DNA of 64,000 nt from a virus (lineage: Duplodnaviria; Caudoviricetes), in the IMG/VR virus record IMGVR_UViG_3300037297_000386; one strand, given 5' to 3'. A program made the translations under genes and the position numbers. Below the pieces are notes generated by a model. The model worked only from the letters and a program-made list of their open reading frames with translations. It was not told where the DNA came from and made no database searches. Shown here in pieces: positions 32,949-52,676 of this stretch (position 1 is the stretch's first letter; the number at the start of each line of letters is the position of its first letter).

Positions 32949-34619
32949 TTAATATTTTTGTATTCTTTGGTAAGCTTGTATTAAATTATTATAATCTATT
33001 ACATGTCCTATTTCTGGCACCACGAAAATACCAGAAAATCTATCTGTTCCTGCTTTCCTATTAAATTCATTTTCTAAATCTCGTAATCTTTCAGCTGTAT
33101 CTCTGTCTAATTTTCCACTAGGATGCAGTCCTAAAAACTCTTGTATTTTCAATATGTTAGTGTCGGTAATGCCTGCTTTTCCAGTTTCTTCAACCGACAC
33201 TCCAATTTGCGAACTTAATTTTCCAATTTGTCCTGATATATCTTTAACAAACTCGACTAAGTTATTTCCTAGAGCAAGTGCCACTGATTTATCAGTGGCA
33301 GAATTAACCACTAAGTCCCATTTCTCAAGATTATTGGTAATTTTGCTAATTTCCGTGGATATGCCAGATATGTATGATCTGATTGACTCAGGAGCATTAT
33401 CTTCTCCTAGGCCACTATTAACATTATTAGCAAGATGTGTAATTTTAGAAATAGAATTTTGTACATCCTGTGTTATTGATTGTCCTATTCCTTTCGAACC
33501 AACACTAGATAATGATGATTGAATAGAAGTTCCAGCCGATTCTACTCGTTTTGGGTCGTTATTCCCAAACCAATTGTATACTTTAATTGCGCCATAACCA
33601 GCTCCAAGGGTAGCTAGTCCAAGACCCAAGCGTTTTACTGTTTCTTTTGGAGTAATCCCAATTAATTTTCTTTTTAAAGATATTCTAGGATCCATTCGTT
33701 TTATCATATCGCCAACAAAACCAGGAGACATCTTCATCTTTGCCCACCTAGATGCATTGCTTGGATTGGCCATAAATAACTTAAAAGTTTCAGAATTACT
33801 TGGATCTGATGCTAAACTAATAGCTTCCTGGATAAATTTTCTATCATTAACGCCAGACCTGTTTAAACTATATACCTCATTAACATCGTCGATTAAATTT
33901 CTAAGTTCTGGTACATTTCTCTCAAGTCCACTACCAAAAAACCCACCAGCTTCTTTACGTTCCACATCTAGAAGATTTTTTAAATTTTGTAACCCATTTG
34001 GTTCACGCATAACATCCTTAGCTCGGTTTATATAATGCAGTTGAGCTTCTGCTTGTTGCACTCTTGACAATGGGTCACGTATCGTATTACGAACATAATT
34101 TTTTATAGCTTCTGGCCCACTACTTTTTATAGACTCTGGAACTATAATAACTCCTAAATTATCACCTACAGCACGCTGTATAAATTCATCTGGGCTATTT
34201 TCTAGTAGATCTCCTACTCTTTTAATGGGCCCTCCCGATTGTATCACTGAATTAGCTTGCGCTTCTGCACCAGATAAACTTTGATGTATTTTGTTTGTTG
34301 TTTCACGCACTCTTCTGGCAAAATCGCCAGCAAAATCTTTATGTAATGTGCTTTCTATCAATTCTCTTCCAGATTTTTCGACACCTTTTATACTTTGTTC
34401 TACAGCCTCGTCAGCTCCTTTCCATAAATGCCTTAACCCAGAAAATACATTATCACTGCTAGATGCAACAGCTTTTGCAGCCTGTTCGGCTGTTTCACGT
34501 CCCAATTTACCGCTAATCTTAGATACGAGGGTAATTACACCTTTCCCTAGTGCACTTAAAATTCCTGCTTGTTTATATAGCGGGCTTACCCTGGAACTTA
34601 TTTGCCTGGTGCCTTCTCG
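32949..34619 (-). CDS. Probable internal virion/ejection protein with C-terminal PG-binding-like motif, reached by -1 frameshift from 34598..35041 (fusion ~697 aa)
   Basis: The frame is open from 34628 with no ATG/GTG/TTG until 34505. The extension reads REGTRQISSRVSPLYKQAGILSALGKG; C-terminus has ILKIQEFLG...SGKLDRDT. Confidence 0.7.
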   Translation of the reverse strand, partial: REGTRQISSRVSPLYKQAGILSALGKGVITLVSKISGKLGRETAEQAAKAVASSSDNVFSGLRHLWKGADEAVEQSIKGVEKSGRELIESTLHKDFAGDFARRVRETTNKIHQSLSGAEAQANSVIQSGGPIKRVGDLLENSPDEFIQRAVGDNLGVIIVPESIKSSGPEAIKNYVRNTIRDPLSRVQQAEAQLHYINRAKDVMREPNGLQNLKNLLDVERKEAGGFFGSGLERNVPELRNLIDDVNEVYSLNRSGVNDRKFIQEAISLASDPSNSETFKLFMANPSNASRWAKMKMSPGFVGDMIKRMDPRISLKRKLIGITPKETVKRLGLGLATLGAGYGAIKVYNWFGNNDPKRVESAGTSIQSSLSSVGSKGIGQSITQDVQNSISKITHLANNVNSGLGEDNAPESIRSYISGISTEISKITNNLEKWDLVVNSATDKSVALALGNNLVEFVKDISGQIGKLSSQIGVSVEETGKAGITDTNILKIQEFLGLHPSGKLDRDTAERLRDLENEFNRKAGTDRFSGIFVVPEIGHVIDYNNLIQAYQRIQKY

Positions 34620-35041
34620 AAAGGGAGATCATCAATCTTTTCAAACAATACTATTGCCTTATCATAAACTACGTCAGAAAGGTTAGATTCTCCTATATCG
34701 TCCAATCTATCAGCCACTTTAACAAGTTCATTAATAGCGTGTGCGTATCTACCAACAAGAGAGCCGGTGGGCATCTTATTAAGCATTTCAATCAATTTAT
34801 TCTGTTGTTCAATTTGATTTTCTACAAGCCCGCCATCTCCACGTGCCTCAGCTACATATACTGATTCTGGATGTGCTTGTTCTATAATATTTTTTTCTGG
34901 AGATTTCTGTCTTTTTTCTTCAATAACCCTTTTGTCTTCTTGATGTGGGTTAGGTGAAGGTGTAGCAGTCTTCTTGATTCCAAACAAATCCTTCTCTTCA
35001 GCAATTTTCAAAAACTCTTCCAATACTATGGAATTATTCAT
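34598..35041 (-). CDS. AHP-motif/helical-tag protein, 147 aa
   Basis: IIEQAHPES...LVENQIEQQ...MPTG and LVKVADRLDDIGESNLSD. Confidence 0.75.
   Translation of the reverse strand: MNNSIVLEEFLKIAEEKDLFGIKKTATPSPNPHQEDKRVIEEKRQKSPEKNIIEQAHPESVYVAEARGDGGLVENQIEQQNKLIEMLNKMPTGSLVGRYAHAINELVKVADRLDDIGESNLSDVVYDKAIVLFEKIDDLPFEKAPGK
34619..34625 (-). promoter_or_regulatory. -1 ribosomal frameshift slippery heptamer C CCU UUC
   Basis: Canonical X XXY YYZ in the zero frame of 34598..35041, six sense codons before its stop; the -1 frame opens one codon upstream. Confidence 0.75.
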
Positions 35042-35319
35042 TATACTCTCCTATTGTCGAACCTTTCTGCTTTATATTGTTTATGATTGGTGTATTGGCC
35101 ATTTGCAACTTTTATCATATGTCCCGGATCTAAATTGTTTTCTCTGCAATATTTGGACAAGTTTTTAATTATCTCAACTTTTCCACTTGGTTTTGTAATT
35201 TTCCAATGTTTCGCGTTAAATTTATGGCCAACTCACAATTTTTTACTTAAAGACTGTATAGTTTGCCCTATATATTTTTTATTATAAATTTCATTCCTGA
35301 CTACATATATTATTCCCAT
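35041..35319 (-). pseudogene. Internally deleted GIY-YIG homing endonuclease relic
   Basis: MGIIYVVRNEIYNKKYIGQTIQSLSKKL* followed in frame by a NUMOD1-like tail (KHWKIT...KNLSKYCRENNL...GQYTNHKQY); the catalytic core is missing. Confidence 0.8.
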
Positions 35320-35332
35320 ATATAGTCTCCAT

Positions 35333-35974
35333 CTACATTAATCTGGTAAATGGTTGCATTAATTGAGACGGATCAGCTACAAAACTCATAAGTCCTTCTA
35401 AATTTTCATCAGTAAAATCTTTGCTTTCTGGAATTTCATGATTGTTAGTATCTTCTAGATATAACTGACCAGGCAATTTGGTTGTCCCAGACGTTTGCGC
35501 ATAAATATCTCCAATTTTTGTAAGTCCAACAGCCAATAATAGGAATTTGACTGCTTTCCACAGAATTTGTATTAACTTTGGTATTGCTCCAATAAGTTTT
35601 AATAATCCACCAAACCATGCTAGTTTAATAATATCATTTTCTGTAGCACCTACTGATGGTTTCAAAAGATTTTTAAGAAATCCGCCGATACCCTCTAATA
35701 AATCATTTTCTTGTATCTGTAGATTTGTGTTTGGAGCCCATCCCATAGCGTTATCTATTGCTTTTCCTAAATCCGAAAGACCGTATCCGAAAAAAGTAGC
35801 AATTTTCTCTAATATAAACACACCCCATCCAAGACCTGGGACAAAAGGAATCAAATATGTTATGATACGGAAGAAATTTTCACAGAATCCTTCGTTTTGG
35901 CGCCATACAGATTTTATGGTTTCACCTAGATCAGATAACTCCCATGCCCGTTTTGAAATAGCATTACCAGTCAT
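35333..35974 (-). CDS. Hydrophobic probable internal virion protein, 213 aa
   Basis: N-terminal ISKRA motif, two hydrophobic segments, IIKLAW motif. Confidence 0.55.
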   Translation of the reverse strand: MTGNAISKRAWELSDLGETIKSVWRQNEGFCENFFRIITYLIPFVPGLGWGVFILEKIATFFGYGLSDLGKAIDNAMGWAPNTNLQIQENDLLEGIGGFLKNLLKPSVGATENDIIKLAWFGGLLKLIGAIPKLIQILWKAVKFLLLAVGLTKIGDIYAQTSGTTKLPGQLYLEDTNNHEIPESKDFTDENLEGLMSFVADPSQLMQPFTRLM

Positions 35975-37412
35975 GTAACATCCTATAGGTCAATAATTCT
36001 TCGTCTTGAATCGGCCTATCTTTATATCCGCGGGGTTTTTCCGGCATAACTTGTCTTTGTGAAACTGGTCTAACAGGACCGAGGCCAGCCATGCCGGTTT
36101 CTATACCTTGTTTACTTAAGTTTCTTGCTATAGGAGCAATCACACGATACACACTTCTAAGCAATTGAGGTCTGTCGCGCATCATTTTAATATTTTGTAA
36201 TGCGTCAAACCCGACTTTAGATCTCTCAGCAACTTCTTGTTGGATTCTCCAATCAGAAGATATGGCTCCTACTAGAGCATCAGCTGTGACAGGCCCATAT
36301 ATTCCATCTTCTCTAACGACACCAGCACCAGAATTTAATGCCGTGTTAATCTGATTCACGACCAATTGCAAACCACGAATAAAAGGATCACCTCTCGACC
36401 TACTTTTACTTGGTACAGTTCTTTGTTTTTCTGGACTTTGGGATCTATCTCTAGGAAGAACTTTTCTACCATCGCCAAGTGTCAAAGCTCTTTTAGATAT
36501 TGCTTTATGCACACTAGCCTTGGCTGTAATCATTTCTATACCATGTTCCATTAATAGCTTAAGGTCTTGCATAGGCTTTGTAACAGATATTATTTCTTGT
36601 TGGGTCAATGGTGCATAACCTTCTGACTTTCCTAAAAGACGTTGTACTACATTCCAAGAAGCTCGTTCAGCATCTGTATCAAACGTGGGAGGCTTACCAC
36701 CTGACATTTCTGTTAACCTTGTATATAATCGATCAACATCTTTAGCCAACTTTTGATAATCAATTTTTGTTCGACTTTGTAAATCCTTAATTGTTTCTTG
36801 GGCCGCCTGTTGCGCTCTTACTTTAGCTTGTTCAACTGATTGTCCCATGGTTTTAGTAGTAAGTTGTAATGCATGCTCAGCTTGTGCATCATCCCATCCC
36901 CAATCTGTCAAATTTTCTTTTACCACCGGCCATTCGACCAACATCTGTTTTAGATATTCATAAACTTGTTTTATAGACATATATTTTTGAATATTCTGTC
37001 GAGCCCGTTCTTGTATATTAGTGGTAGTAGGTGGCAATTCTAGTACAGATTTGTAAGAATTTAACTGTTGTATCCAAGACTGTACTTTTGGAGCAGCAAT
37101 ATTATTTGGATCCAAATCCTCTAGACGATCTATAAGATCAGATAAATTATTATCCATTTGTCTAGTCAGATACCATATTCCCATAGTGAGAGCTGCACCA
37201 CCTAAAATAGCCCAACCAATCGGACCAGCGGCTGCACCTATACCAGCCATTGCACCGGCTCCACTAGCTGTACCTGCAACTCCAGCAGCTCCAGCTGCAA
37301 CAGCTGCATCTATTGCAGCACCAATACCAAGTTCTGTTATAATGTCTCTCCAGGTCCATCCTTCTTTTATGAACCAATCAGATGGATCTGTTTCAGTTTT
37401 AAGTTTGTGCAT
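35964..37412 (-). CDS. Probable ejection/internal protein with Gly/Ala-rich TM region and PG-binding-like motif, 482 aa
   Basis: AGAAGVAG...AAGPIGWAILGGAAL; ISKRA; IRGLQ...EDGIYGPVT. Confidence 0.55.
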   Translation of the reverse strand: MHKLKTETDPSDWFIKEGWTWRDIITELGIGAAIDAAVAAGAAGVAGTASGAGAMAGIGAAAGPIGWAILGGAALTMGIWYLTRQMDNNLSDLIDRLEDLDPNNIAAPKVQSWIQQLNSYKSVLELPPTTTNIQERARQNIQKYMSIKQVYEYLKQMLVEWPVVKENLTDWGWDDAQAEHALQLTTKTMGQSVEQAKVRAQQAAQETIKDLQSRTKIDYQKLAKDVDRLYTRLTEMSGGKPPTFDTDAERASWNVVQRLLGKSEGYAPLTQQEIISVTKPMQDLKLLMEHGIEMITAKASVHKAISKRALTLGDGRKVLPRDRSQSPEKQRTVPSKSRSRGDPFIRGLQLVVNQINTALNSGAGVVREDGIYGPVTADALVGAISSDWRIQQEVAERSKVGFDALQNIKMMRDRPQLLRSVYRVIAPIARNLSKQGIETGMAGLGPVRPVSQRQVMPEKPRGYKDRPIQDEELLTYRMLHDW

Positions 37413-37422
37413 ATCTAGCCCA

Positions 37423-39072
37423 TTAAAATTGGTTTAAAATAATTCTTAAAGCATTACTATAACCATCTGGATTTGATAAATCGTGATATCTTTCTGATTG
37501 TTCTACCAATTTACGTATACGATTTTGTACACCTGGTTCATCTGCCCATCTAGAGTCCATTCTTACTAAATGACTATAAACTTGATCTTGTAATTTAAGT
37601 CTTGTGCGCTCGTCGGCAGCTACTCTTTCAGTAACTCCTGGCTTCCTAATCTCTTTAGGAGACTTAATGGCCATTTTGATGTCATAAGCTTCCTTTAATT
37701 TGGCACCACTACCATAATTTTCTTTAATATATGATAAGGCTCTTTGTATTCCTCTTCGCATTGGACGCGTAACACCATCTTCAATTCTATTTATAGGAAT
37801 GCGATGTTCACTTTTTACAAAATTTTCATCCCCAAGAATCCCCTTCATCATCTTCATATACCAATCAGCAAATTTCTTGGCAGTTGGCCAATCTGTTAAG
37901 ACCCTTTGTTTCCACGACATTGTTTTTATATCGCCAACACCTGCTTTACCCTTTTCATCAATAGGAGTCTTCATGTCATAAACCCCGGGAGCTTTAGATT
38001 CTACCTGTTGTTTTAAAGCCACATACTGGTTCATATATGGATACACAGCTGAAAGTGCTTCGTTAAATGTACTGCGTAGTTCGGGTTGTGAATTTACAAG
38101 TCTTTCAATATTATGTCGAGCTTCCTGAAAACTTCTGTTTTTTTGGTTTTGAATTATTGAACGTTGGCCACCAGCCGTAGCACCACCAGGAAGCCTGGAT
38201 ACCATAGTGTCAACCATAGTATCAACCATCTGTTTTTCAACATCTCTTAAAGCATTTTGTTGTGTCGTAGTAACTGCAACTTTTAATATTTCATCAATTC
38301 TATTAGCTGCCTCTGAATGTCCTATATTATCCAATTTATCGGCCAACATATTAAGAGTATAAAACACATAATCTTCCCTAGTGGCAATTTTGTTAATCGC
38401 CTTACGCAATTCTCCAAGATGTTTTCCATACCCCATCTTGTTAAGTTTCAGGTATAAATTAACCAAAGCCGCATATGTGCCTTTTGGAACACTTCTAGCT
38501 ACCCCAACATCGGCATCTTGCTGTTCGACAATTGTCTCGACCAAATTTTCATCAGTCTTACTGTGTGTTAATTCAGTTTTTGTGCCACCGCCAGGATGGG
38601 CCTTTTCTACAAGTTGTTCTCCAGTCTCACCAGATACATTATATATACTTTGTTCAGCGACTTTCTTACTGTCATTTTTATTGGTAGCTTGCTTATCTGA
38701 TTGAATAGATTGTGGAAAATGTTTTTTTAATAGTTGAAGAACCATTGGCTGCCAGCCAAACTCTTTAAATAATATTTGCCCAAGTTTAACCGGATCAGTT
38801 TTAGGAGGTATTTTCCATTGTTTTAAACTATTAAACAAACCAACTAATATTCTTTCTTTTCCCAAATCATTCAAAAAAGCGTCAAAAGCTTTTTTAGCTT
38901 CTGGAATAGCAATTGTAGTTCCCTTCTCAAAAGTTACCACCCCAGGTTCAGTACTCTCAGATTGTTCTACTACTTCAGTGGCTTCCTGAGCTTGTTTGAC
39001 TAGACCATTATTAACAGCAATACGGGCATATTCATTTAGAACTGTGCTTTGATCAAAACCGATATGTTTCAT
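37423..39072 (-). CDS. AHP-motif/helical-tag protein, 549 aa
   Basis: KAHPGGGTKTELTHSKTDENLVETIVEQQ and LADKLDNIGHSEAANRIDEIL. Confidence 0.7.
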   Translation of the reverse strand: MKHIGFDQSTVLNEYARIAVNNGLVKQAQEATEVVEQSESTEPGVVTFEKGTTIAIPEAKKAFDAFLNDLGKERILVGLFNSLKQWKIPPKTDPVKLGQILFKEFGWQPMVLQLLKKHFPQSIQSDKQATNKNDSKKVAEQSIYNVSGETGEQLVEKAHPGGGTKTELTHSKTDENLVETIVEQQDADVGVARSVPKGTYAALVNLYLKLNKMGYGKHLGELRKAINKIATREDYVFYTLNMLADKLDNIGHSEAANRIDEILKVAVTTTQQNALRDVEKQMVDTMVDTMVSRLPGGATAGGQRSIIQNQKNRSFQEARHNIERLVNSQPELRSTFNEALSAVYPYMNQYVALKQQVESKAPGVYDMKTPIDEKGKAGVGDIKTMSWKQRVLTDWPTAKKFADWYMKMMKGILGDENFVKSEHRIPINRIEDGVTRPMRRGIQRALSYIKENYGSGAKLKEAYDIKMAIKSPKEIRKPGVTERVAADERTRLKLQDQVYSHLVRMDSRWADEPGVQNRIRKLVEQSERYHDLSNPDGYSNALRIILNQF

Positions 39073-39117: not shown

Positions 39118-39792
39118 TTAGCCGGCAGATATATTATTAAGCTCATTTATCATTTTCTTAATATCTTCATTGCTCAAAGAAGAAGCTATATGTTTTATAT
39201 TTCTTATAGTACGTTCAATCTTATAGGCAGTCTTATGATTACCCATTGTGCCATGTTTATAAGCCATATCTTCGAGAGCTGAATATATCGTAACTAACCC
39301 AGATTCTGGTGTAGCCAAGCCTTCTTCTACAGCTTCCTCGGCCCCGCTAGTTACTTCCGAAGTCTGAGCATCATCTTCATTTTCATCATTATCTTCTCTA
39401 TCACTATCTTTTTCATCTTCATCTTCTCTATCACTATCTTTTTCATCCTTGTCTTTGTCTTTTTTCAAGGGGCATTCTGGATTAGGGCCACTACCAGGAG
39501 GCCCACCACGTCCCATACCAACCGGATCATTACCATCGAATAAGATTTCCATTAAACTATTCTTACTAGATAATCTTTCAAAATCTCCACGCAGACATAT
39601 TGATTTAAGATTATTGTATAAATCATTTAGCACAACTAATAAAGTTTCATCGCTAGCTTGTCGAATTATTGGGTCTATCCATTTTCTTAAATCACCACTA
39701 GTAGCAAGACCCATAGATACAATTCTATCTTTTTCATTGCGAATCATATCGCAAGCAAGTTTTAGTGTGTATTCGTCATTAAGAGTAAACAT
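39118..39792 (-). CDS. Acidic low-complexity hypothetical protein with divergent helical tag, 224 aa
   Basis: EKDSDRED duplicated at DNA level (~39391-39447); LEDMAYKHGTMGNHKTAYKIE. Confidence 0.7.
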   Translation of the reverse strand: MFTLNDEYTLKLACDMIRNEKDRIVSMGLATSGDLRKWIDPIIRQASDETLLVVLNDLYNNLKSICLRGDFERLSSKNSLMEILFDGNDPVGMGRGGPPGSGPNPECPLKKDKDKDEKDSDREDEDEKDSDREDNDENEDDAQTSEVTSGAEEAVEEGLATPESGLVTIYSALEDMAYKHGTMGNHKTAYKIERTIRNIKHIASSLSNEDIKKMINELNNISAG

Positions 39793-40659: not shown

Positions 40660-40986
40660 TTACTCTTCGGACGACTTGTCTGATTGAAAGCTATCAACAA
40701 TAGTCTTTAATGCATCATCAACTAAATTAGATGCTTCTTCAGCGCCCATGTCATCAAGTTCACCAGCCAGTTTCACCAAATCATTAACCACACTTATTAA
40801 GCTGGCTTTTTTATCATTTTTTTCTTTTTCCTTATCCTTTGCCTCATCTTTCTTTTCTTCCTCGTCTTTTTCATCTTTATCATTTTCATCTTTATCATTT
40901 TCATCTTTTTTAGCTGCATTCTTAACCATATCAGTATTTAATAAGGATGCAAGTTCTAAAATCATTTCGTCTCCAGCTCGTGTCAT
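40660..40986 (-). CDS. Small charged helical-tag protein, 108 aa
   Basis: KDEND repeats and LVKLAGELDDMGAEEASNLVD. Confidence 0.75.
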   Translation of the reverse strand: MTRAGDEMILELASLLNTDMVKNAAKKDENDKDENDKDEKDEEEKKDEAKDKEKEKNDKKASLISVVNDLVKLAGELDDMGAEEASNLVDDALKTIVDSFQSDKSSEE

Positions 40987-45500: not shown

Positions 45501-46368
45501 GTATCTCATTAACAGTATCAGCTAGACTTTGTAATTCAGTTGGGTTTACACATCTTTGGTGCGTAAGTTCATCTATTCTATCTTGCTTATTTTGCACATA
45601 AGTATTTAGACTAGCTATAATATTCCTTATTTTAGCCCTGCCATCAGCCCCATTAACAACTAAACTAAGTTCAATCGGTGACAGATCTAAATTAATTTCA
45701 CCATAATTCTTCCTAGCAAGAATACACGGACAATATTCTTTCTCTGTGACGGCCACATTCCCGCACTCAGTACACACAGACCGCCCAACTGCTGTTCCCA
45801 TAGAAACACAATTTGCGTATCCAGTCTCAACTTTGCGCGCCAAATCCGCATAATTCTTTTTATCTAATGCAAACAACGCATGAACACGCTTAAATTTTGG
45901 ATCATAATATGTATCAATAATTATCCCGCGGATTCCATCAACGCTATCCGAACGATGATCCTTGCAAAGTGGTTTTCCAATCCACAGTTTATATGCTTTG
46001 ATAAGTTCAGCTTCACTAAATATATCTCCATTGGCATTTTTATATGGCATTATATTATCTGTCGAAACCCATCTAACCGAATTTTTGCCACTTTTGTTTT
46101 TAAACTCTTCAAAAAACCCAGACACAGGCTTGCCGTTTTTATTCATATTCGGTTCGCCAGTCTCTTGATTTACCAAAGAAGCTTCAGCTGCATGCATAAT
46201 AACCGCATGTCCGTATAAAAAATCTTTAGCTTTTGGAGCAACTCTTCGTAATTTTTTGGCTAATTTAACAAATCTTTTTAATACCAATTCATCCTTAAGG
46301 GCCTGTTTTGGCGACAAAATATTTTTTTCGGAACTGAATGTTAAATTTTCACCAAATTTTTCAAGCAT
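42586..46368 (-). CDS. Prohead protease fused to a long scaffold/internal-protein region (~1260 aa)
   Basis: NANGDIF...KPLCKDH...GIIID...VSMGT...CTECG...YCPC...IELSLV..GAD is a HK97/herpes-type prohead protease. It is followed by coiled coils, K/D/E tracts, a Zn-ribbon and an AHP motif. Start moved to the ATG behind GAGGAG. Confidence 0.85.
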   Translation of the reverse strand: MLEKFGENLTFSSEKNILSPKQALKDELVLKRFVKLAKKLRRVAPKAKDFLYGHAVIMHAAEASLVNQETGEPNMNKNGKPVSGFFEEFKNKSGKNSVRWVSTDNIMPYKNANGDIFSEAELIKAYKLWIGKPLCKDHRSDSVDGIRGIIIDTYYDPKFKRVHALFALDKKNYADLARKVETGYANCVSMGTAVGRSVCTECGNVAVTEKEYCPCILARKNYGEINLDLSPIELSLVVNGADGRAKIRNIIASLNTYVQNKQDRIDELTHQRCVNPTELQSLADTVNEIRIKISSLMQSENLEKAAEMDEDKARTLAQLTATYRELKEAGAEKAAAEILAEITKLISKDKSIEKIEDETIPPMRPTPGGPSWSPMSEEGVEGLPTSTPLSGIPTERYASKEGDKQGAYLEELRLLRSKVESMQKSLNELKKVSKEENNMNSARLRARAKARRAYWLGGGGVNEPTPGKPKYEKEDAESIRNKEDKQMTGQPLETGSEGLHPGDEEKLRDAGRNGLNLSKAKLEERAMKRRAYWLGGGGVNEPTPGKPKYEKDPMAEKVRNNEDKHLQGLYDMGGKDGTVPGDMELKKKLLRAKLSAKFTKVADHDGQLCKSASRWDIYAGGKLILTATGSEIFGDDIDENWDYLSSREYGGDVIKYIRSEGFDRVAYLLKGAQPPMTDPLAGGAGGAGGEMAPIGDQLGEPIPSEGGETAPKDSEKPVEVKQPKEETQGKIDSALNAMEEKIAEIRDLASGMEEELVDIDVNIDEDSKGEAAEKTPEMAPMEGALASREEVLKVESLLNESADELALISEALDGEVNERLLKAAEQAWEDSQTILKETSMVLEAKKNKDKKEEKDENDKKDKKEEKAKNEDEKYEKKEAGKLPPGLEKFQKEKGKDKDKKDDKDKDDKDKKEEKDENDKEDKKEAQKLLEDALKIRSENRAALLAKAMGNGQFCEQCGSKLVPGQAHDCGVPADDCVVTEVDTDDSLEDLINDSSSYADDEVVESEASLKEARKRAREELVVQATDKILGKYELDLGKAENATEKTYFEAHPGGKGTMTELTHTKTDEAKVETISEIHDAMRDVAESGPRNVREAAMKLQEQFVKGALKVEDLDKLVAEGKVDSAAASYWKKYWSQGPDTGSFGADLSKDFAGKKKEAEDKTYKVKLRRAYDLGLMAQEKGMIEPSRVALDTYVDEIMKFDNAAFESTKRIVASMKSNKKSGKLPVVGADAATKAMEVTASADPVVEPNLVTQLNGLGWK
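44716..45014 (-). repeat. Two ~65-bp direct repeats in the scaffold region (44716-44780, 44949-45014)
   Basis: Both encode RRAYWLGGGGVNEPTPGKPKYEK. Confidence 0.9.
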
Positions 46369-46379: not shown

Positions 46380-47528
46380 TCAATCCTCTTCGTCTTCTTC
46401 AATACCTTCTAAAAATTTTTCTAATTCTTCTTCCATTTCATCAGACATTTCTACTTCTTCTGTGGAATCACATTCATCATTACTATCTTCTGCATCTATT
46501 GCTTTTTCATCGTCAGAATTAGCATCAAAAAAATCTAAAGTATTTTGACCTTCATCATGTTTAACGGCATCGACAATATTGTTAAACATTTCCTCTAAAT
46601 CTTTTTTAGATGGTTTCTTGCCGTGCATTAATTCAAAAAATCTCTTTTTGGCTGACTCTAAACCTTCTTGGGTTTTCTCCATGTCTTTAACTATCTTGTC
46701 TAATCCTAAATCTTTCGCCGAATCAGAAAAATCGAAATACCGTAGACGTCTAAAAAGTTCATTAAGACTTTTAATGGATTTTGAATTATTTTGATCGGCG
46801 TCATGTACAAAAATAATTAAATTCTTTTTAACCTTATCGTCTAATTTTTTAAGTGGGGCTTTTGGGCGGGCCGAAAATGATTTTAAAGCACGATCAACTT
46901 CAGAGGCAAGATCAAATTTTCTTTCTTGATCGAATTCATCAGCCATTTTTACCAACACAGATCTAATTTTATTCTCCACTACACTTGCCATTTTTCTCTC
47001 AGTTGATTTCATATCTTCCTGTGTAAACAACGGCTTCCTGTTTTCAACGACTTCGTGAGTTCCAGATAATGCTTCATCCAGATCTTTTTCTCTGCCAACA
47101 TGTTTTGGGTCAAATTCGAACTCTTCTTCTGATAATGTTGGTAAATCTGCTCCCTCTTCAAACCAACCACCTTCTTCTAATTTTCTAATCGTCTCTTTTG
47201 CAGCTTCTGGGACCATATATGTTTGTAATTCTGGAGTATCGCTAATATCACCAAGATTTAAGCCATCAGTCCATTTATCATGAATTTTTGGAATAGCTCG
47301 TACCATATTACCGCGCCCATCTGGGTCTGGCTCTAGAACTAAATCGAAACTGATGGCTTTTCCAAGGGACATAATAACTTCTGGCTTCAATCTAATGAGT
47401 TCAACCAGATCAATGTTCCCACCAGCTTCTTGTGCTAAAGATAAAATAAATTTATCCACTCTATTTGCCATTTTAAGTAAACCAGATTGATTAAGGCGAT
47501 CGGACAATTTGATCAATTTTACAAACAT
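46380..47528 (-). CDS. Helical-tag protein (two copies), 382 aa
   Basis: LIKLSDRLNQSGLLKMANRVD and LVKMADEFDQERKFDLASEVD. Confidence 0.75.
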   Translation of the reverse strand: MFVKLIKLSDRLNQSGLLKMANRVDKFILSLAQEAGGNIDLVELIRLKPEVIMSLGKAISFDLVLEPDPDGRGNMVRAIPKIHDKWTDGLNLGDISDTPELQTYMVPEAAKETIRKLEEGGWFEEGADLPTLSEEEFEFDPKHVGREKDLDEALSGTHEVVENRKPLFTQEDMKSTERKMASVVENKIRSVLVKMADEFDQERKFDLASEVDRALKSFSARPKAPLKKLDDKVKKNLIIFVHDADQNNSKSIKSLNELFRRLRYFDFSDSAKDLGLDKIVKDMEKTQEGLESAKKRFFELMHGKKPSKKDLEEMFNNIVDAVKHDEGQNTLDFFDANSDDEKAIDAEDSNDECDSTEEVEMSDEMEEELEKFLEGIEEDEED

Positions 47529-48446: not shown

Positions 48447-49202
48447 TTATTGTTTGCCATACGGAGGCTCTAAATTATTATAAGATGTATAAAAATAACT
48501 ATCAGAGAGTCCATTAAATCCAGAATGCTGGCTGAAATCTGTAGGAACACGGCCATTAGCGCCAACTAATACTTCAGTTCCACCATTTTCTTTTTTGTGC
48601 TTTCTCTTGGTTTTTTGTTTACGTTTTCTCTTCTGTCTACGCTCTAAATTTTTAATAGTTTCAAGCATTTCATCATCTATCATAGTCTTTAAAACGTTAT
48701 CTAACTCGCTAGCTTCACTATATAAGCCCATGTTATCTAATAGATCTGCTAGTTCAGCAATTTTTTCGGCTTCTGGGATATTAAAAACTCCTTGCATACC
48801 TCCAGCTGGTTCTCCAGTCATCATATACTCGCCAGACCCAGGATAATTCATTTGTACATCTGGAACATTATTTATTATTGAATCATTTAAATCATCTTCA
48901 AAATTACCATCTATAGCTGACATGGCATCAAATACCAATTGTGAAGCGTCTATGAAACCCGCTTCTTCCAAAAATCCAGCAATATCAGATAGTTTTGATA
49001 ATGCCTTGGTTTCTTTGTCATCAGTAGACCCATCATCAGCGCGATGTTTAAAAGTTTGTACTTCTTTTTCACGTTGTTTAGCACCAGCCAAAGAATCATA
49101 TGTTCCTAAATTACGTCGATGGCCACTTTCGTCTTTTTTACGACTATATAAACGATATTTACCACTAGGCAATTTTCTTATGATAGCTATTTTAATAAGC
49201 AT
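48447..49202 (-). CDS. Helical-tag protein with basic N-terminal domain, 251 aa
   Basis: IKIA motif; GKYRLYSRK...NLGTYDS..AKQRE; two tag copies. Confidence 0.75.
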   Translation of the reverse strand: MLIKIAIIRKLPSGKYRLYSRKKDESGHRRNLGTYDSLAGAKQREKEVQTFKHRADDGSTDDKETKALSKLSDIAGFLEEAGFIDASQLVFDAMSAIDGNFEDDLNDSIINNVPDVQMNYPGSGEYMMTGEPAGGMQGVFNIPEAEKIAELADLLDNMGLYSEASELDNVLKTMIDDEMLETIKNLERRQKRKRKQKTKRKHKKENGGTEVLVGANGRVPTDFSQHSGFNGLSDSYFYTSYNNLEPPYGKQ

Positions 49203-49234: not shown

Positions 49235-49726
49235 TTATTGTTGACGTAATTCATTTTTCAATATTTTTTGCATCCATGGAAACATTTTCCTTGCACGTTC
49301 TGTAGCAGGCCCATATAAAGCATCTTCTTTCAAGCGAGGCCCAAAACCACCTCTCACCCTCAAGCCCATATTTTTTAATTGATCCCAAATCTCGTTATAT
49401 TGTTTTTGAAATGCTAAAATATTTGGATCTCTTATTACATCAGGACGTATAACCTGTGGCTTTCCACGTTCTATTAACTTTTGTGGTTCCGGTTTCATAT
49501 TCTTCATTTGTTCGGCGCGATCCCGAAATTCAGCATAATAAGGCTCTGGAACATCCCCAAGACGATCAGTGATATATACATTTCCTTTTTCATCCTTCCA
49601 CTTAAAAATTGGTTGTTCAGCAATGCTTTTTATTACAGAATCTATTTCAGACGCTTCTATATAAAGACCTTTATCGTCCAATTTGTTAGCGAAACTTATA
49701 AGTTCTTCTAAAATTGATACACACAT
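49235..49726 (-). CDS. Helical tag + DUF4124-like + PG-binding-like protein, 163 aa
   Basis: LISFANKLDDKGLYIEASEID; IFKWKDEKGNVYITD..P; ILAFQ...EDALYGPAT. Confidence 0.65.
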   Translation of the reverse strand: MCVSILEELISFANKLDDKGLYIEASEIDSVIKSIAEQPIFKWKDEKGNVYITDRLGDVPEPYYAEFRDRAEQMKNMKPEPQKLIERGKPQVIRPDVIRDPNILAFQKQYNEIWDQLKNMGLRVRGGFGPRLKEDALYGPATERARKMFPWMQKILKNELRQQ

Positions 49727-49735: not shown

Positions 49736-50110
49736 CTATTCCGCGCCCCATCCAGGCTGTAATCTTTGTTTTTTTATTTCTTCTCGTACTGGTTTAAATG
49801 ATGGCTGCACAACAATAATATCATATCGAACATTAGCAGTACCTCTCCCTCTCACTGCAGCTATCATAAAATGACCCATAGATTCTCTAACTTCAGCAAT
49901 CTCTCCGGATCTCAATTTAAATCTATATACAGGTGTAGCTTTTGCAAACTCAGTTGCAATTTCCTCATTAAGCTGCGCGTTTGGCATATGAGCAAATTCT
50001 GGATTAGCTCGTCTAAAATATTTACGTGCCGTGACACTGACACCAATATTTGCCGAAGACATTTCTATAGAAGTAGCAACTATTTTGTGTCGCAAAGATA
50101 TTGGTTTCAT
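49736..50110 (-). CDS. Hypothetical protein, 124 aa
   Basis: Co-directional ORF; N-terminal ISLR..KIVA. Confidence 0.7.
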   Translation of the reverse strand: MKPISLRHKIVATSIEMSSANIGVSVTARKYFRRANPEFAHMPNAQLNEEIATEFAKATPVYRFKLRSGEIAEVRESMGHFMIAAVRGRGTANVRYDIIVVQPSFKPVREEIKKQRLQPGWGAE

Positions 50111-51003
50111 ATTTTTTTAATAATTTTATCGAGTTCATTAGCTTCATTATAAAATCTTTTTTGATCTAATTGATTAGCAATTTTTGTAAGAATATTAATT
50201 ACAAATGTTTGGCTCTTCTTTTCCCTCAACCAATCATACCAGTATTGTTCCTCATTTGTAACACTGGATGGTGGATCCATATACATTTCTTGTTCTGATG
50301 GAGGAATTGTTACGCCCTTTTCTTTTTGTTCTAACCAATCATTAACATCTTTGTCTGGCCAGTTTAGTTTATCATATGTACCGGCTGGAACTGGCCCATG
50401 GCGTTCATCCCATTCTTCACCACCTACTTCTCTATAAGTCTTCTCTATTTCATGTGGATCAGTAGGTACTTCTAATTTTTCATCTGGCATAACACTAAAC
50501 CTACCTATATTTTCTAATTCTTTCATCTTGCGTTCGTCTTCCAAATACTCATATATTTCTTTTTTATGCCTGTTTATAATTTCTGGGAGAGATTTCCCTA
50601 CATTATTTTCAAGAGTCCCTCTTCCTTTAAAAGTTTCATAGGCTATCTCGCCAGTCCATTCATCAGGATCATAATAATCAACAATAATTTTACCCATTGG
50701 ATCGTTTCTAAGAGCTTCGTCTAATAGTTCTTCTGCTTTTTCGGTCATCTCAACATCTACTAAATTTGATTTTTCTTCAATAGCCCATTCTTCTAAGTCT
50801 GTGTCAGAATATTCATTTATAATTCTATTTAAAAATGAGATCCTTCTTTGCCAATCATCATTGTCTAGATTATTATAATCCTCTCGTACTCTTTCCGCTA
50901 ATCCAGGCGAAACTTTGTATTCTTCTTCCTCAAACATAGAGTCGTCTTTATTTGTATCAACTGCTATTTTAACAAATTTATATGTATCCACTGGTATAGG
51001 CAT
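50107..51003 (-). CDS. Acidic protein with C-terminal helical tag, 298 aa
   Basis: FVKIAV; LTKIANQLDQKRFYNEANELD. Confidence 0.75.
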   Translation of the reverse strand: MPIPVDTYKFVKIAVDTNKDDSMFEEEEYKVSPGLAERVREDYNNLDNDDWQRRISFLNRIINEYSDTDLEEWAIEEKSNLVDVEMTEKAEELLDEALRNDPMGKIIVDYYDPDEWTGEIAYETFKGRGTLENNVGKSLPEIINRHKKEIYEYLEDERKMKELENIGRFSVMPDEKLEVPTDPHEIEKTYREVGGEEWDERHGPVPAGTYDKLNWPDKDVNDWLEQKEKGVTIPPSEQEMYMDPPSSVTNEEQYWYDWLREKKSQTFVINILTKIANQLDQKRFYNEANELDKIIKKI

Positions 51004-51020
51004 TTTAAAATCCTTGTGAA

Positions 51021-51953
51021 TTACTTATTTGGACTCTTCGTTTTACTATAGCGCTTGTATATCGAGCTACGTTTGGCATCAGACAGCTGATTGTCCCAGA
51101 TATCTCCAACAATTTCGCTTACACGTTTAGAAGAATAGTCCGGGTTCTTTTTCTTAATTTCGGCAACTTGTTCATTCCACCATTTTTTAGGAGCCTTATG
51201 CTCAGCCCCTTCAGGCTTTTTTTCTCCTGGACCTTTATATGTTTTATACTTAGTTTTCTTTTTAGAAGCTTCTTTCACTAATTCATCAAATTTGTTTGCT
51301 AATGCAGTTTCACCTAATTGATCAAAATAATCTGCAAGAGCAATCATATCATCGGGTTTAATACCAACGCGCTCCGCCATTGATTCCATGACCTTTTCTA
51401 TTTCTTTTGCTTCATTATACATTCCTTTTGTATCAAGTATATATGCTATCTTATACAATGCAACTAATGGACTCATCATAGCCTCCCTACGTTCATTCCT
51501 TTGTTTTAATAAATACAGATGACTTTCATGTAAATCAACCACACCTTGTAATAAATTATCAATCCCATCGGTTAATTCATTATCTTTTTCCATAGATGTT
51601 AAAGCATCAGAAACAATGGAAATAAATTTTTCTTCTGCTTTAATAGATAAAATTGGGAATTTATCTGCTGTATCGGTATCAGATATCAAATTACTTACTA
51701 TATTCGCAGTCATAGCGGTATTTTTATTTGGCCCTATAGAATCCGGGCCAAATATACCTATAGCCTTCTCAGCCACAGAATCTATCTCTTCTTCTATCTC
51801 ATCATATAATCTTTCATACAACAAATGATCTCCATAATAATTATTTCCTGAAGAATGCCAATGCATATGCTCATACATTTCTTCTAAAGCTTCCAAAAAA
51901 GAAAGTATGGTGCTCATATCGTTGGATCCATCTGCTAATACAATTTTAGACAT
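51021..51953 (-). CDS. dps: Dps/ferritin-like protein + two helical tags + HMG-box-like tail, 310 aa
   Basis: HMHWHSSGNNYYGDHLLYERLYDEIEEEIDSVAEK matches the Dps ferroxidase pattern; C-terminal KKKNPDYS...IVGDIW..LSDAKR. Confidence 0.75.
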   Translation of the reverse strand: MSKIVLADGSNDMSTILSFLEALEEMYEHMHWHSSGNNYYGDHLLYERLYDEIEEEIDSVAEKAIGIFGPDSIGPNKNTAMTANIVSNLISDTDTADKFPILSIKAEEKFISIVSDALTSMEKDNELTDGIDNLLQGVVDLHESHLYLLKQRNERREAMMSPLVALYKIAYILDTKGMYNEAKEIEKVMESMAERVGIKPDDMIALADYFDQLGETALANKFDELVKEASKKKTKYKTYKGPGEKKPEGAEHKAPKKWWNEQVAEIKKKNPDYSSKRVSEIVGDIWDNQLSDAKRSSIYKRYSKTKSPNK

Positions 51954-51965
51954 GTTAGTCTCCTA

Positions 51966-52286
51966 TTACATAAAATCCCGGTTTTTTCTATTAAAAATTC
52001 TTTGACCAGTATTCATAACGGTTCGAGAGTGTTCTATCAAGTGGAACCCAGGAGGCCAAAACATTTCAATAGCATCTTCTGAAACATATATTTCATGTTC
52101 TCCATCAGAAGTTGTAAATATTAGAACACCACTATCTTCGTCATATTCTTTAAAAATAACACGCATAAGAGTGCCATTGATGGTTGTAGAATCAGCATAA
52201 GTAATCCATTCGCGATCTATCCCAGTATATAATTCTACTTCCTTGCCTTTAAAACGTTTTTCAAAAAATTTACCAAGCTGTGCCAT
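51966..52286 (-). CDS. Small beta-barrel (Sm/SH3-like?) hypothetical protein, 106 aa
   Basis: FKGKEVELY...GTLMRV..KEYD..GVLIF...IYV pattern. Confidence 0.55.
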   Translation of the reverse strand: MAQLGKFFEKRFKGKEVELYTGIDREWITYADSTTINGTLMRVIFKEYDEDSGVLIFTTSDGEHEIYVSEDAIEMFWPPGFHLIEHSRTVMNTGQRIFNRKNRDFM

Positions 52287-52298
52287 TATTAAGTATCC

Positions 52299-52676
52299 TT
52301 ATAGTTTAAATAATATTTTATCTATTTCACTAGCTTCATCATAAAACCCATTTCGGTCTAAATTATTAGCCAAACTTACAAGATTATTAAATATATTTAA
52401 AGAAGATTGCTTAGGTAAACCAGTACTATCTACCTGAATACCAGGGTATTTTCTTTTTAATGTTCTAATATAATTCCATATTTCTGGCAAAAGGTCTTTT
52501 ATGCTTGAACCGTTAAATTCCTTATAACTTATCATTTCATTTGATTTGGTATCCATTACTACAACACTTACTGTAGCCATATTTAATATTTCATATCCAT
52601 TTACTTTTATTATATATTGTGACATTGTTTCGGCCTTTTTTGGAATTGTTATCATAATATTTTCATTAGATCTCAA
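52299..52676 (-). CDS. Hypothetical protein with C-terminal helical tag, 125 aa
   Basis: LVSLANNLDRNGFYDEASEIDKIL. Confidence 0.75.
   Translation of the reverse strand: MRSNENIMITIPKKAETMSQYIIKVNGYEILNMATVSVVVMDTKSNEMISYKEFNGSSIKDLLPEIWNYIRTLKRKYPGIQVDSTGLPKQSSLNIFNNLVSLANNLDRNGFYDEASEIDKILFKL

What the first reader, a model, noticed from the sequence alone, without database searches (positions are those of the whole stretch)
34598..52676. A ~28-aa helical tag shared by 10 unrelated head-region proteins (candidate capsid-sorting signal)
Seen: consensus LxxLAxxLDxxGxxxxAxxIDxxI occurs 13 times. One copy each: 34598 (LVKVADRLDDIG), 37423 (LADKLDNIG), 39118 (divergent), 40660 (LVKLAGELDDMG), 49235, 50107, 52299. 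Two copies each: 46380, 48447, 51021. It appears at N-, C- or internal positions, attached to different payloads (Dps, DUF4124-like/PG-binding, acidic tracts), and only between the portal and capsid genes. Inference: a modular address tag that docks cargo onto the scaffold/inner core, analogous to the T4 capsid-targeting sequence, or an oligomerisation module that builds an inner body.
Basis: partly seen in the sequence, partly recalled or inferred. Interest (0 to 1): 0.87.

Follow-up and report, generated by a model that had tools for sequence, protein, structure and literature searches.

The report
Portable helical-hairpin tag on megaphage proteins
A fragment of an uncultured giant phage related to Bacillus phage G attaches the same roughly 32-residue two-helix module to about ten otherwise unrelated proteins, mostly among its head-assembly genes; the module is real, widespread in related phages and undescribed, and it most likely docks proteins into the assembling head, though that role is inferred and not shown.

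Summary
The motif is real. Leave-one-protein-out profiles recover 10 of 11 carriers at 16-35 bits, against 5 bits or less for every other ORF. A profile built only from database sequences scores the window's copies at 27-51 bits; decoys with the same hydrophobic pattern reach at most 17.5.

Of the 13 copies claimed, 11 are strong and one is weak (48447, copy 1). The 'divergent' copy in 39118 is not supported. An eleventh carrier with two copies lies outside the window, upstream of the terminase gene.

The module matches 1,413 protein clusters among 1.84 billion metagenomic representatives. No Pfam or PHROG model covers it. It is virtually absent from cellular genomes and was not found in cultured phages, phage G included. 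A tandem pair folds confidently into two TPR-like hairpins.

Across nine related phage records, 40 of 63 tags lie within 35 kb upstream of the capsid gene (10.6 expected). In three complete genomes most tags lie elsewhere, so 'only between portal and capsid' is wrong.

Payloads include a Dps-like protein, a muramidase, membrane-active ejection-like proteins and acidic scaffold-like proteins. My best reading is a docking module for procapsid-core and internal proteins (about 0.5). The receptor is unknown.

Other follow-ups in this scan describe similar hairpin tags in other giant-phage genomes.

The parts
34637..34738 (-). Tag copy in the 147-aa protein (ORF 34598-35041), residues 102-135. In relatives this protein continues into the next ORF, so the tag is internal there.
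   Evidence: Leave-one-out 16.9 bits; database profile 22-27 bits; orthologous tags in G004 and G007.
38266..38364 (-). Tag copy in the 549-aa protein (ORF 37423-39072), residues 237-269.
   Evidence: Leave-one-out 22.5 bits; 27.8-34.6 bits; orthologues in G004, G005 and G007 keep a tag.
39190..39294 (-). Claimed 'divergent' copy in the 224-aa acidic protein (ORF 39118-39792). Not supported.
   Evidence: -2.7 bits in leave-one-out, at another position; 0.4 bits against the database profile.
40690..40794 (-). Tag copy near the C-terminus of the 108-aa acidic-tract protein (ORF 40660-40986), residues 65-99.
   Evidence: Leave-one-out 33.6 bits; the G005 orthologue keeps it.
47427..47528 (-). N-terminal tag (residues 1-34) of the 382-aa protein (ORF 46380-47528), immediately upstream of the protease gene.
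   Evidence: Leave-one-out 16.1 bits; 24-31 bits; N-terminal tag kept in the G002 and G005 orthologues.
46866..46967 (-). Second, internal tag (residues 188-221) of the 382-aa protein.
   Evidence: Leave-one-out 23.6 bits; 27.5-34 bits.
48906..49007 (-). Weak first tag (residues 66-99) of the 251-aa protein (ORF 48447-49202).
   Evidence: 3.3 bits in leave-one-out, 7.8-13.3 bits against the database profile; orthologous copies score 22.6 bits (G002) and 19.2 bits (G005).
48672..48773 (-). Second tag (residues 144-177) of the 251-aa protein.
   Evidence: Leave-one-out 25.7 bits; 32.6-38.4 bits.
49616..49717 (-). N-terminal tag (residues 4-37) of the 163-aa protein (ORF 49235-49726).
   Evidence: Leave-one-out 34.9 bits; 40.5-45.6 bits; the single-sequence AF2 model gives helix 3-18, turn, helix 25-36 at low confidence.
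50110..50205 (-). C-terminal tag (residues 267-298) of the 298-aa protein (ORF 50107-51003).
   Evidence: Leave-one-out 34.8 bits; 38-44.5 bits.
51246..51482 (-). Tandem pair of tags (residues 158-236) in the 310-aa Dps-like protein (ORF 51021-51953). The pair sits between a ferritin-like domain and a basic HMG-box-like tail.
   Evidence: Leave-one-out 28.4 and 8.7 bits; 30.8-44.4 bits against the database profile; AF2 with alignment A3 gives pLDDT 86.7 and four helices; DUF5856/Ferritin and phrog_858/3636 hits.
52302..52397 (-). C-terminal tag (residues 94-125) of the 125-aa protein (ORF 52299-52676).
   Evidence: Leave-one-out 31.3 bits; 41-46 bits.
42586..46368 (-). 1,260-aa protein with a prohead-protease domain (about residues 33-253) and a charged extension of about 1,000 aa. 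Candidate protease-scaffold fusion and candidate receptor for the tags; the receptor role is inferred.
   Evidence: phrog_18299 'head maturation protease', E 1e-12; 34% identity to phage G gp19 over residues 33-253 only; conserved at 35-62% identity in G002 and G004-G007.
52775..60679 (-). 2,634-aa multi-enzyme protein lying between the portal gene and the first tagged genes. It carries five exact ISKRA motifs.
   Evidence: phrog_2244 nucleotidyltransferase hit; ISKRA counts.
60959..64000 (-). Portal gene (1,413 aa). It runs off the window end.
   Evidence: phrog_16240 portal, E 9e-33 and 4e-13 on its two parts; 41% identity to the phage G portal.
30175..30471 (-). First piece of the major capsid protein gene. 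A later piece lies at 27222-27578; homing-endonuclease ORFs lie between them.
   Evidence: phrog_2522 major head protein, E 1.6e-15; 66% and 52% identity to phage G gp27.

Best explanation
The tag is a portable protein-protein docking module of about 30-34 residues. It is a single TPR-like helical hairpin: helix, conserved LD-x2-G turn, helix.

Two conserved alanines (profile positions 8 and 20) would let the helices pack closely. Four conserved Asp/Asn residues (9, 12, 21, 24) would form an acidic face.

In this lineage of phage-G-related megaphages the hairpin is fused, in one to three copies and at any position, to proteins that must be built into the procapsid. These include:
- acidic scaffold-core-like proteins;
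- a Dps-like DNA-binding protein;
- cell-wall hydrolases;
- membrane-active ejection-like proteins.

It would hold them on a common, repeated receptor inside the assembling shell. The most likely receptor is the long extension of the protease-scaffold fusion protein; failing that, the inner face of the capsid protein. Several copies would give avidity on a repeated lattice. The maturation protease may later cut the tags off or destroy them.

Shown: the module exists, is statistically robust, is viral, is widespread, folds as paired hairpins when tandem, and is enriched in the head block.

Inferred: that it binds anything, what it binds, that the carriers are packaged, and any proteolytic removal.
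For: Reality of the module:
- Leave-one-out recovery at 16-35 bits against 5 bits or less for non-members.
- 27-51 bits against an independent database profile; decoys that keep the hydrophobic pattern reach at most 17.5.

Breadth:
- 1,413 clusters at E<=1e-3 and 74 at E<=1e-10 in 1.84 billion representatives, often with 2-3 copies per protein.
- At least 119 IMG/VR stretches matched a degenerate DNA pattern. 76 of the 80 loci returned were confirmed by HMM.
- A somewhat stricter pattern gave only 2 hits in 596 Gb of prokaryotic genomes, both on short MAG contigs.

Same positions conserved on unrelated carriers (L4, A8, L11, D12, G15, A20, D24 at 86-99%), which argues for one shared constraint.

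Fold:
- The tandem pair is predicted at pLDDT 86.7 as four helices.
- All top structural matches are TPR/Sel1 proteins, but they are weak.

Head association:
- In the record the window lies in (G000), 13 of 15 tags lie between the portal and capsid genes.
- Syntenic relatives keep tags on orthologous head-block proteins.
- 49 of 75 independent IMG/VR tag loci also hold an untagged head-block marker.
- 40 of 63 tags in nine records lie within 35 kb upstream of the capsid gene, against 10.6 expected.

Modularity:
- Only the tag aligns between 49235 or 52299 and their best matches in relatives.
- A tag that is intact in the G002 orthologue has decayed in G000.

Payloads fit head-internal or ejected proteins:
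- ferritin/Dps-like in 7-11 of the 150 top hits;
- a GH108 muramidase, E 2e-20;
- a glycine-zipper protein resembling the untagged ejection-like 482-aa protein;
- acidic tracts.
Against: - No direct evidence of packaging or binding exists. No cultured phage with the tag was found, so no virion proteome applies.
- In the three complete genomes only 4 of 14 tags lie near the capsid gene.
- G006 has no tag between portal and capsid.
- In G001 and G006 several tagged genes lie 2-6 kb from chaperonin genes, or among small genes that do not look structural.
- Some proteins of about 72 aa consist of tags alone, which a pure address label does not explain.
- The enrichment test treats tags as independent. 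The DNA pattern also over-samples one orthologous family, the 378-aa protein next to the terminase block.
- The G000 record is only about 40% complete.
Confidence: 0.5

Rival explanations
1. Self-association module. The solitary hairpins stack on one another, as TPR repeats do within one chain. Carriers would then co-polymerise into a proteinaceous core or inner body without any separate receptor.
For: - A lone TPR-like hairpin exposes hydrophobic faces. Tandem copies are predicted to pack against each other with high confidence.
- Tag-only proteins of about 72 aa exist, as do proteins with 2-3 tags joined by long linkers.
- Many carriers are acidic and scaffold-like.
Against: - Nothing here shows intermolecular pairing.
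- The conserved acidic face (D/N at positions 9, 12, 21, 24) would repel a like face unless bridged by cations or a basic partner.
- Most carriers have a single copy, and the payloads are enzymes rather than structural repeats.
Confidence: 0.2
2. A general docking module unrelated to the capsid. The tag would recruit diverse phage proteins to some other hub, phage- or host-encoded, such as a chaperonin, a membrane site or a replication or transcription compartment. Its abundance in the head block of this sub-lineage would then be secondary.
For: - 10 of 14 tags in the complete genomes G008-G010 lie far from the capsid gene.
- In G001 three consecutive tagged genes lie 2-6 kb downstream of a Cpn60 gene and near adenylosuccinate synthetase. 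G006 shows the same chaperonin proximity.
- Some tagged genes lie on the opposite strand among small ORFs.
- One carrier has an AP2 DNA-binding domain.
Against: - Enrichment near the capsid gene is about 3.7-fold even without G000 (27 observed against 7.4 expected).
- 65% of independent loci hold head-block markers.
- Giant phages commonly scatter virion-protein genes (general knowledge), so dispersion does not exclude packaging.
- Dispersed carriers include a muramidase and an ejection-like protein, both typical virion cargo.
- The G000, G004, G005 and G007 records hold no chaperonin, though they are fragments.
Confidence: 0.2
3. No common partner. The hairpin would be a stabilising structural element, a solitary TPR/Sel1-like unit that spread by duplication and recombination within these genomes without carrying a shared function.
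For: The hairpin is small, helical and weakly TPR-like. Decayed copies exist.
Against: - Surface-type positions (D12 99%, D24 89%, D/N9 79%, D/N21 77%) are conserved across more than 200 instances on unrelated carriers.
- Orthologous carriers keep their tags at 30-60% overall identity.
- The module often sits at the extreme termini, detached from the payload domain.
Confidence: 0.07

Closest known systems
Capsid-targeting sequence (CTS) of phage T4 internal proteins (IPI-III, Alt; reviewed in PMC3012670 and PMC9026906)
   Same: A short peptide shared by unrelated proteins encoded with the head genes. It is thought to direct them into the procapsid core, in a system that has a prohead protease.
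   Different: - The T4 CTS is a short N-terminal peptide removed by gp21; this description is from my own knowledge of T4.
- The module here is a folded hairpin of 30-34 residues. It can be N-terminal, internal or C-terminal, comes in up to three copies, and is also found outside the head block.
- No sequence similarity was seen. Removal by the protease is untested.
C-terminal helix-turn-helix coat-binding domain of the phage P22 scaffolding protein (used to load foreign cargo into P22 capsids; PMC9962691)
   Same: A helical hairpin of about 30 residues that docks a protein to the inside of an HK97-fold procapsid. It is transferable to arbitrary cargo and acts electrostatically.
   Different: - By my recollection the P22 hairpin is basic and binds an acidic coat N-arm; the face here is acidic.
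- P22 has one scaffold gene, not about ten carriers.
- No homology was detected, and no binding to the capsid protein was tested here.
Encapsulin cargo-loading peptides (PMC7925596, PMC10402063)
   Same: A common peptide addresses unrelated cargo, ferritin-like proteins in particular, into an HK97-fold shell. Here too a ferritin/Dps-like protein is the most recurrent identifiable payload.
   Different: Encapsulin peptides are short, C-terminal and unstructured, and the shell holds no DNA. The motif is unrelated.
Tetratricopeptide (TPR) / Sel1-like repeats
   Same: A helix-turn-helix unit of about 34 residues. Small residues sit at positions 8 and 20 and hydrophobic residues at 4, 7, 11 and 27. 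The best structural matches of the tandem model are all TPR/Sel1 proteins.
   Different: - No Pfam TPR or Sel1 model matches.
- Copies are solitary or widely spaced rather than in arrays.
- Position 24 is Asp, not aromatic.
- Structural matches are weak (E 0.07-1, TM 0.4-0.5).
Herpesvirus protease-scaffold precursor (pUL26-type), raised by another follow-up in this scan (e1-5374090)
   Same: The phage protease is fused to a long extension that could serve as scaffold and hub.
   Different: Membership of the assemblin family was not established here. There was no Pfam hit and no informative PDB sequence hit.

Membership tests
T4-type capsid-targeting sequence | Located at the extreme N-terminus of the precursor | tested here: not met
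   Of 14 supported copies in G000, 3 are N-terminal, 4 C-terminal and 7 internal.
T4-type capsid-targeting sequence | Short peptide (about 10-20 residues) with no fold of its own | tested here: not met
   The conserved unit spans 30-34 residues. It is predicted as a helical hairpin; the tandem pair has pLDDT 86.7.
T4-type capsid-targeting sequence | Removed by the prohead protease at a consensus site after assembly | tested here: inconclusive
   - K-x-A ends 38% of 311 tags, against 1.2% per residue in the background, but it also occurs inside the tag.
- An [ILMFV][SA]xR[AVT] motif is enriched in the head block (12 against 3.5 expected) and follows tag 1 of the Dps-like protein.
- The true cleavage specificity is unknown.
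T4-type capsid-targeting sequence | Necessary and sufficient to package a foreign protein into proheads | not testable with these tools
   This needs a fusion-packaging experiment.
TPR / Sel1-like repeat (Pfam clan TPR) | Match to a curated TPR or Sel1 sequence model | tested here: not met
   No TPR/Sel1 family at E<=0.1 in the ten window carriers. None in ten database carriers and none in the 150-member tally.
TPR / Sel1-like repeat (Pfam clan TPR) | Consensus small or hydrophobic residues at positions 4, 7, 8, 11, 20, 24, 27 of a 34-residue unit | tested here: inconclusive
   L4 90%, L7 66%, A8 93%, L11 86%, A20 96% and I/L/V27 fit. Position 24 is Asp in 89% of copies, and the hydrophobic residue is at 23.
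TPR / Sel1-like repeat (Pfam clan TPR) | Tandem arrays of three or more contiguous repeats forming a superhelix | tested here: not met
   Carriers have 1-3 copies, usually separated by tens to hundreds of residues. At most two are contiguous.
TPR / Sel1-like repeat (Pfam clan TPR) | Structural similarity to solved TPR domains | tested here: inconclusive
   The top 50 Foldseek PDB hits are almost all TPR proteins (MamA, consensus TPR, KLC, OGT), but with E 0.07-1 and TM 0.4-0.5. The viral library gave the same picture.
P22-type scaffolding coat-binding hairpin | Binds the inner surface or N-arm of the major capsid protein | not tested
The capsid gene is also interrupted in this window.
Encapsulin cargo-loading peptide | Short C-terminal peptide adjacent to an encapsulin shell gene without portal or terminase | tested here: not met
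   The carriers sit in a tailed-phage head module with terminase, portal and protease. Tags are not restricted to the C-terminus.

The most novel reading that the evidence does not exclude
The hairpin is a general, position-independent cargo-loading signal of phage-G-related megaphages. It would bind a repeated receptor on the protease-scaffold fusion or on the shell interior, so that any protein given one or more copies is packaged and later delivered into the host. The maturation protease would then destroy the signal at its own internal and terminal K-x-A sites. This would be a natural counterpart of engineered scaffold-fusion encapsulation, and the organising principle behind the protein-rich heads of giant phages.
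Probability: 0.3. Interest if true: 0.85.

Novelty: new variant of a known kind. Interest (0 to 1): 0.7.

Why it matters
How giant phages select and load dozens of different proteins into their heads is unresolved for the phiKZ/SPN3US-type phages (PMC5694885, PMC7411985). It is essentially unexplored for phage-G-type megaphages.

A recognisable sequence tag would:
- allow the packaged or ejected proteome of uncultured megaphages to be predicted from sequence alone;
- point to candidate injected enzymes and anti-defence proteins;
- provide a compact natural handle for loading cargo into large capsids.

Whatever its function, the module defines a large family that is virtually confined to viral sequence (more than 1,400 clusters at 50% identity) and is missing from Pfam and PHROGs.

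Tried and rejected
- Complex prediction of four copies of one tag, using alignment A1, returned no verdict. It is evidence neither for nor against self-association.
- The search for related loci with the tag alignment failed because no stretch was conserved enough. I replaced it with degenerate DNA patterns.
- The single-sequence AF2 model of the 163-aa carrier had low confidence (pLDDT 60.6). It was used only for secondary structure.
- The ESM Atlas search with the tandem tag gave no usable hit.
- Contig look-ups for two top database hits gave contigs of only about 3 kb, with no useful context.
- tblastn of tag carriers against 50,697 phage records found no tag match.
- Profile searches of phage G, Tunturi_5, Rctr197k and LR745208 found no tags. 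No proteome-backed relative could therefore be used.
- A sequence search of the protease domain against the PDB gave only an irrelevant zinc-ribbon match.
- The C-terminal part of the protease-scaffold protein was tested as a marker co-occurring with tags. It was found in G010 but not in G008 or G009, nor in the tag-less phage G and LR745208. This is inconclusive at single-sequence sensitivity.
- A link to phage chaperonins was considered. It was not pursued because four of the six tag-bearing records examined, all of them fragments, hold no chaperonin.
- Four literature searches found no description of this module.

Full report
**Setting**

The window is the minus strand of bases 55692-119691 of a single 162,416-bp viral record, G000. 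CheckV rates the record as about 40% complete, so it is a fragment of a phage of roughly 400 kb. All genes of interest lie on the window's minus strand.

In transcription order the region encodes:
- a gpA-type large terminase, just outside the window;
- a 1,413-aa portal;
- a 2,634-aa multi-enzyme protein;
- a run of small and medium ORFs;
- a 1,260-aa protein whose N-terminal quarter is a prohead protease;
- more ORFs;
- a major capsid protein gene broken up by homing-endonuclease ORFs.

The nearest cultured relative by capsid protein is Bacillus phage G, at 53% identity to the intact capsid protein of relative G005. The portal, the protease domain and the capsid protein of G000 also align to phage G.

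**Is the motif real?**

Yes. A profile built from the 13 claimed copies separates them (33-48 bits) from everything else in a six-frame translation of the record (8.7 bits or less). It also finds two further copies in a 378-aa protein outside the window.

Seeds match their own profile by construction, so I repeated the test leaving out one carrier at a time. Ten of eleven carriers were recovered at 16-35 bits, against 5 bits or less for the best non-member of 151 ORFs.

A second profile, tagBig, was built only from database proteins.
- Excised copies of the window's tags score 26.7-51.2 bits against it.
- 3,000 decoys that keep each tag's hydrophobic/polar pattern average -1.5 bits, with a maximum of 17.5.
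- Shuffled proteomes reach 7.3 bits at most.

Two corrections to the copy list:
- The 'divergent' copy in 39118 fails both tests (-2.7 and 0.4 bits).
- The first copy in 48447 is weak here. Its orthologous copies in G002 and G005 score 19-23 bits, so it is probably a decaying true copy.

The payloads share nothing beyond the tag and low-complexity acidic tracts. The exception is a second module that 37423 and 34598 share with the protease protein.

**What the module looks like**

Over 236 database instances the conserved positions are:

| Position | Residue | Frequency |
|---|---|---|
| 4 | L | 90% |
| 7 | L | 66% |
| 8 | A | 93% |
| 9 | D/N | 79% |
| 11 | L | 86% |
| 12 | D | 99% |
| 15 | G | 95% |
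| 19 | E | 64% |
| 20 | A | 96% |
| 21 | D/N | 77% |
| 23 | I/V/L | 94% |
| 24 | D | 89% |
| 27 | I/L/V | 83% |

The unit is helix, LD-x2-G turn, helix, and the element A-[DN]-x-[LIV]-D recurs 12 residues apart. The spacing of small and hydrophobic positions (4, 7, 8, 11, 20, 27) follows the TPR pattern.

The tandem pair from the Dps-like protein was folded with an alignment of 18 tandem-tag proteins. It gives four helices at pLDDT 86.7. Its best matches in the PDB and in the viral structure library are almost all TPR or Sel1 proteins, but they are weak (E 0.07-1, TM 0.4-0.5). No Pfam TPR model matches. I therefore call it TPR-like and not a member of that family.

**How widespread is it?**

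- The tag profile matches 1,413 representatives (clusters at 50% identity) at E<=1e-3 and 74 at E<=1e-10 among 1.84 billion proteins. Two or three copies per protein are common, and carriers range from 71 to 1,032 aa.
- No Pfam or PHROG family covers the tag.
76 of the 80 loci returned were confirmed by HMM.
- A slightly stricter pattern found only two hits in 596 Gb of prokaryotic genomes, both on short MAG contigs.
- The tag was not found in 50,697 deposited phage records by tblastn. Profile searches found none in phage G, Tunturi_5, Rctr197k or LR745208.

The module thus appears confined to an uncultured branch of phage-G-like large phages. These share the capsid family phrog_2522 and, where it was tested, the portal family phrog_16240.

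**Where are the tagged genes?**

In G000, 13 of 15 supported copies (9 of 10 carriers) lie between the portal and capsid genes. The tenth carrier lies 8.7 kb upstream of the terminase gene, in a conserved block of four genes (576 aa, the tagged 378 aa, 242 aa, 489 aa).

The relatives G002, G004, G005 and G007 are syntenic and keep tags on orthologues of 37423, 34598, 40660, 46380, 48447 and the Dps-like protein. For 49235 and 52299, only the tag aligns to their best matches in relatives, which shows payload swapping. The G002 orthologue of an untagged G000 protein carries an intact tag at the spot where G000 has a decayed one.

Among 75 independent IMG/VR loci with a confirmed tag (median length 9.3 kb), 49 also contain an untagged head-block marker. 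I used one operational window for all nine records whose capsid gene is located: the 35 kb upstream of that gene.
- All nine records: 40 of 63 tags fall inside, against 10.6 expected.
- Without G000: 27 of 48, against 7.4 expected.

The enrichment is real, but it is overstated by treating tags as independent and by over-sampling the 378-aa family.

It is not an exclusive rule:
- G006 has no tag between portal and capsid.
- The three complete genomes have only 4 of 14 tags in the window.
- In G001 and G006, tagged genes lie a few kb from Cpn60 chaperonin genes or among small ORFs.

**What is attached to the tag?**

Most carriers have no recognisable domain. The recurrent identifiable payload is a ferritin/Dps-like domain (7 Ferritin and 4 DUF5856 hits among the 150 top carriers), usually followed by a tandem tag. 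In the window it also carries a basic HMG-box-like tail.

Other payloads:
- a GH108 muramidase (E 2e-20);
- a protein with a glycine-zipper hydrophobic segment, like that of the untagged 482-aa protein in the window, which hits tape-measure-like PHROGs;
- HEAT repeats, an AP2 domain, zinc ribbons, and one weak hit to the T7 capsid-assembly protein;
- acidic tracts.

Wall hydrolases, membrane-active proteins, DNA-binding proteins and acidic core proteins are what one expects inside a large phage head. That expectation rests on general knowledge of T4, T7 and P22, not on a test made here.

**Mechanism**

The same surface-type residues are held constant on hundreds of unrelated carriers. This points to one shared partner, or to mutual association.

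I favour a docking module that holds carriers on a repeated receptor in the procapsid (confidence about 0.5). The protease protein's extension of about 1,000 aa is the first receptor candidate:
- Phage G, which has no tags, has a 300-aa protease (gp19) and aligns only to residues 33-253.
- All six syntenic tag-bearing relatives have the long form.

This rests on a small sample, and the co-occurrence test was inconclusive.

Multiple copies would add avidity on a lattice. Proteolytic removal is possible but untested:
- An [ILMFV][SA]xR[AVT] motif, most often ISKRA, is enriched in the head block (12 against 3.5 in shuffles). It occurs right after the first tag of the Dps-like protein.
- K-x-A ends 38% of tags but also occurs twice inside the tag.

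The rivals are direct tag-tag stacking that builds a core (0.2), a docking role unrelated to the capsid (0.2), and no shared function (0.07).

**Comparison with known systems**

Functionally the closest are the T4 capsid-targeting sequence, the P22 scaffolding hairpin that binds coat protein, and encapsulin cargo-loading peptides. The module meets none of the defining features of these that I could test (position, length, context), so I file it under none of them. It works most like the P22 hairpin in form and like the T4 CTS in use. I found no paper describing it.

**Earlier notes in this scan**

Follow-ups on other giant-phage genomes describe similar portable two-helix tags and reach the same tentative reading. 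I did not compare their sequences with this module. My conclusions rest on the tests above, not on those notes.

**Verdict**

This is a genuine, widespread, undescribed module that is virtually confined to viral sequence. The capsid-addressing reading is the best available, but it is unproven.

Noticed in passing
window 27222-32119 (-): The major capsid protein gene is in pieces (30175-30471, 27222-27578 and probably a short one near 29037-29180). LAGLIDADG-type homing-endonuclease ORFs lie between the pieces (29250-30023, 27827-28735). Two more paralogous endonuclease ORFs lie just upstream (30510-31328, 31346-32119). The capsid genes of G007 and G011 are also split, while those of G004-G006 are intact.
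   Followed up: partly
window 43072-43239 (-), 38455-38619 (-), 34673-34894 (-): A second shared module, roughly L-[IV]-E-x-A-H-P ... G-x-[LV]-E-[TN]-I-x-E-Q, occurs near the C-terminus of the protease protein (residues 1044-1099). It also occurs in 37423 (54% identity over 56 aa, E 2e-8) and in 34598, in both cases just before the hairpin tag. It is conserved in three proteins per genome in G004, G005 and G007.
   Followed up: partly
window 44950-45018 (-) and 44716-44784 (-): The protease extension contains two near-identical 23-residue repeats beginning R-R-A-Y-W-L-G-G-G-G, plus a related L-R-R-A-Y-D-L-G near residue 1168. They are conserved in G002 and G005. This basic-aromatic element could be a binding site for the acidic tags, but that is speculation.
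   Followed up: no
window 34598-42335 (-), N-termini of ORFs 41004, 40660, 39118, 37423, 34598: Five proteins downstream of the protease gene start with a similar short helical leader of the form [DE]-E-h-h-x-[EK]-h-A. A regex written after seeing them hits 4 of 11 proteins in that block and 0 of 140 elsewhere. The test is post hoc and therefore weak.
   Followed up: partly
window 52775-60679 (-), 35964-37412 (-), 35333-35974 (-), 4367-10792 (-): The pentapeptide I/L-S-K-R-A occurs five times in the 2,634-aa enzyme polyprotein. It occurs once each in the 482-aa and 213-aa ejection-like proteins (in the latter at residues 6-10) and once in a 2,141-aa protein. The relaxed motif is enriched in the head block, 12 against 3.5 in shuffles. 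It is a candidate maturation-protease site.
   Followed up: partly
window 32949-35041 (-): The 147-aa tag protein (34598) and the following 518-aa ORF (32949) correspond to single ORFs in relatives: 751 aa in G005, 464 aa in G004, 411 aa in G007. The G000 arrangement is therefore a split, a frameshift or a sequencing error.
   Followed up: partly
L011:10204-11796 (G001) and G006:C1:71318-72847, 121554-123062: Phage-encoded Cpn60-type chaperonin genes lie 2-6 kb (up to about 11 kb for one G006 tag) from tagged genes in two records. An adenylosuccinate synthetase gene lies next to the G001 cluster.
   Followed up: partly
L001:11695-12384 (genome 47695-48384, outside the window): This 229-aa protein has a decayed hairpin (no Gly, and a Pro in the turn) at the spot where its G002 orthologue has an intact tag (17.7 bits). 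It is an example of tag loss.
   Followed up: yes
L001:10437-11204, L001:14465-15679 and window 52775-60679: A free-standing CCA-type nucleotidyltransferase gene and an ATP-dependent DNA ligase gene lie next to the terminase gene. The polyprotein carries a second nucleotidyltransferase domain, paralogous to the first (28% identity). This suggests a nucleic-acid repair toolkit encoded with the head genes.
   Followed up: no
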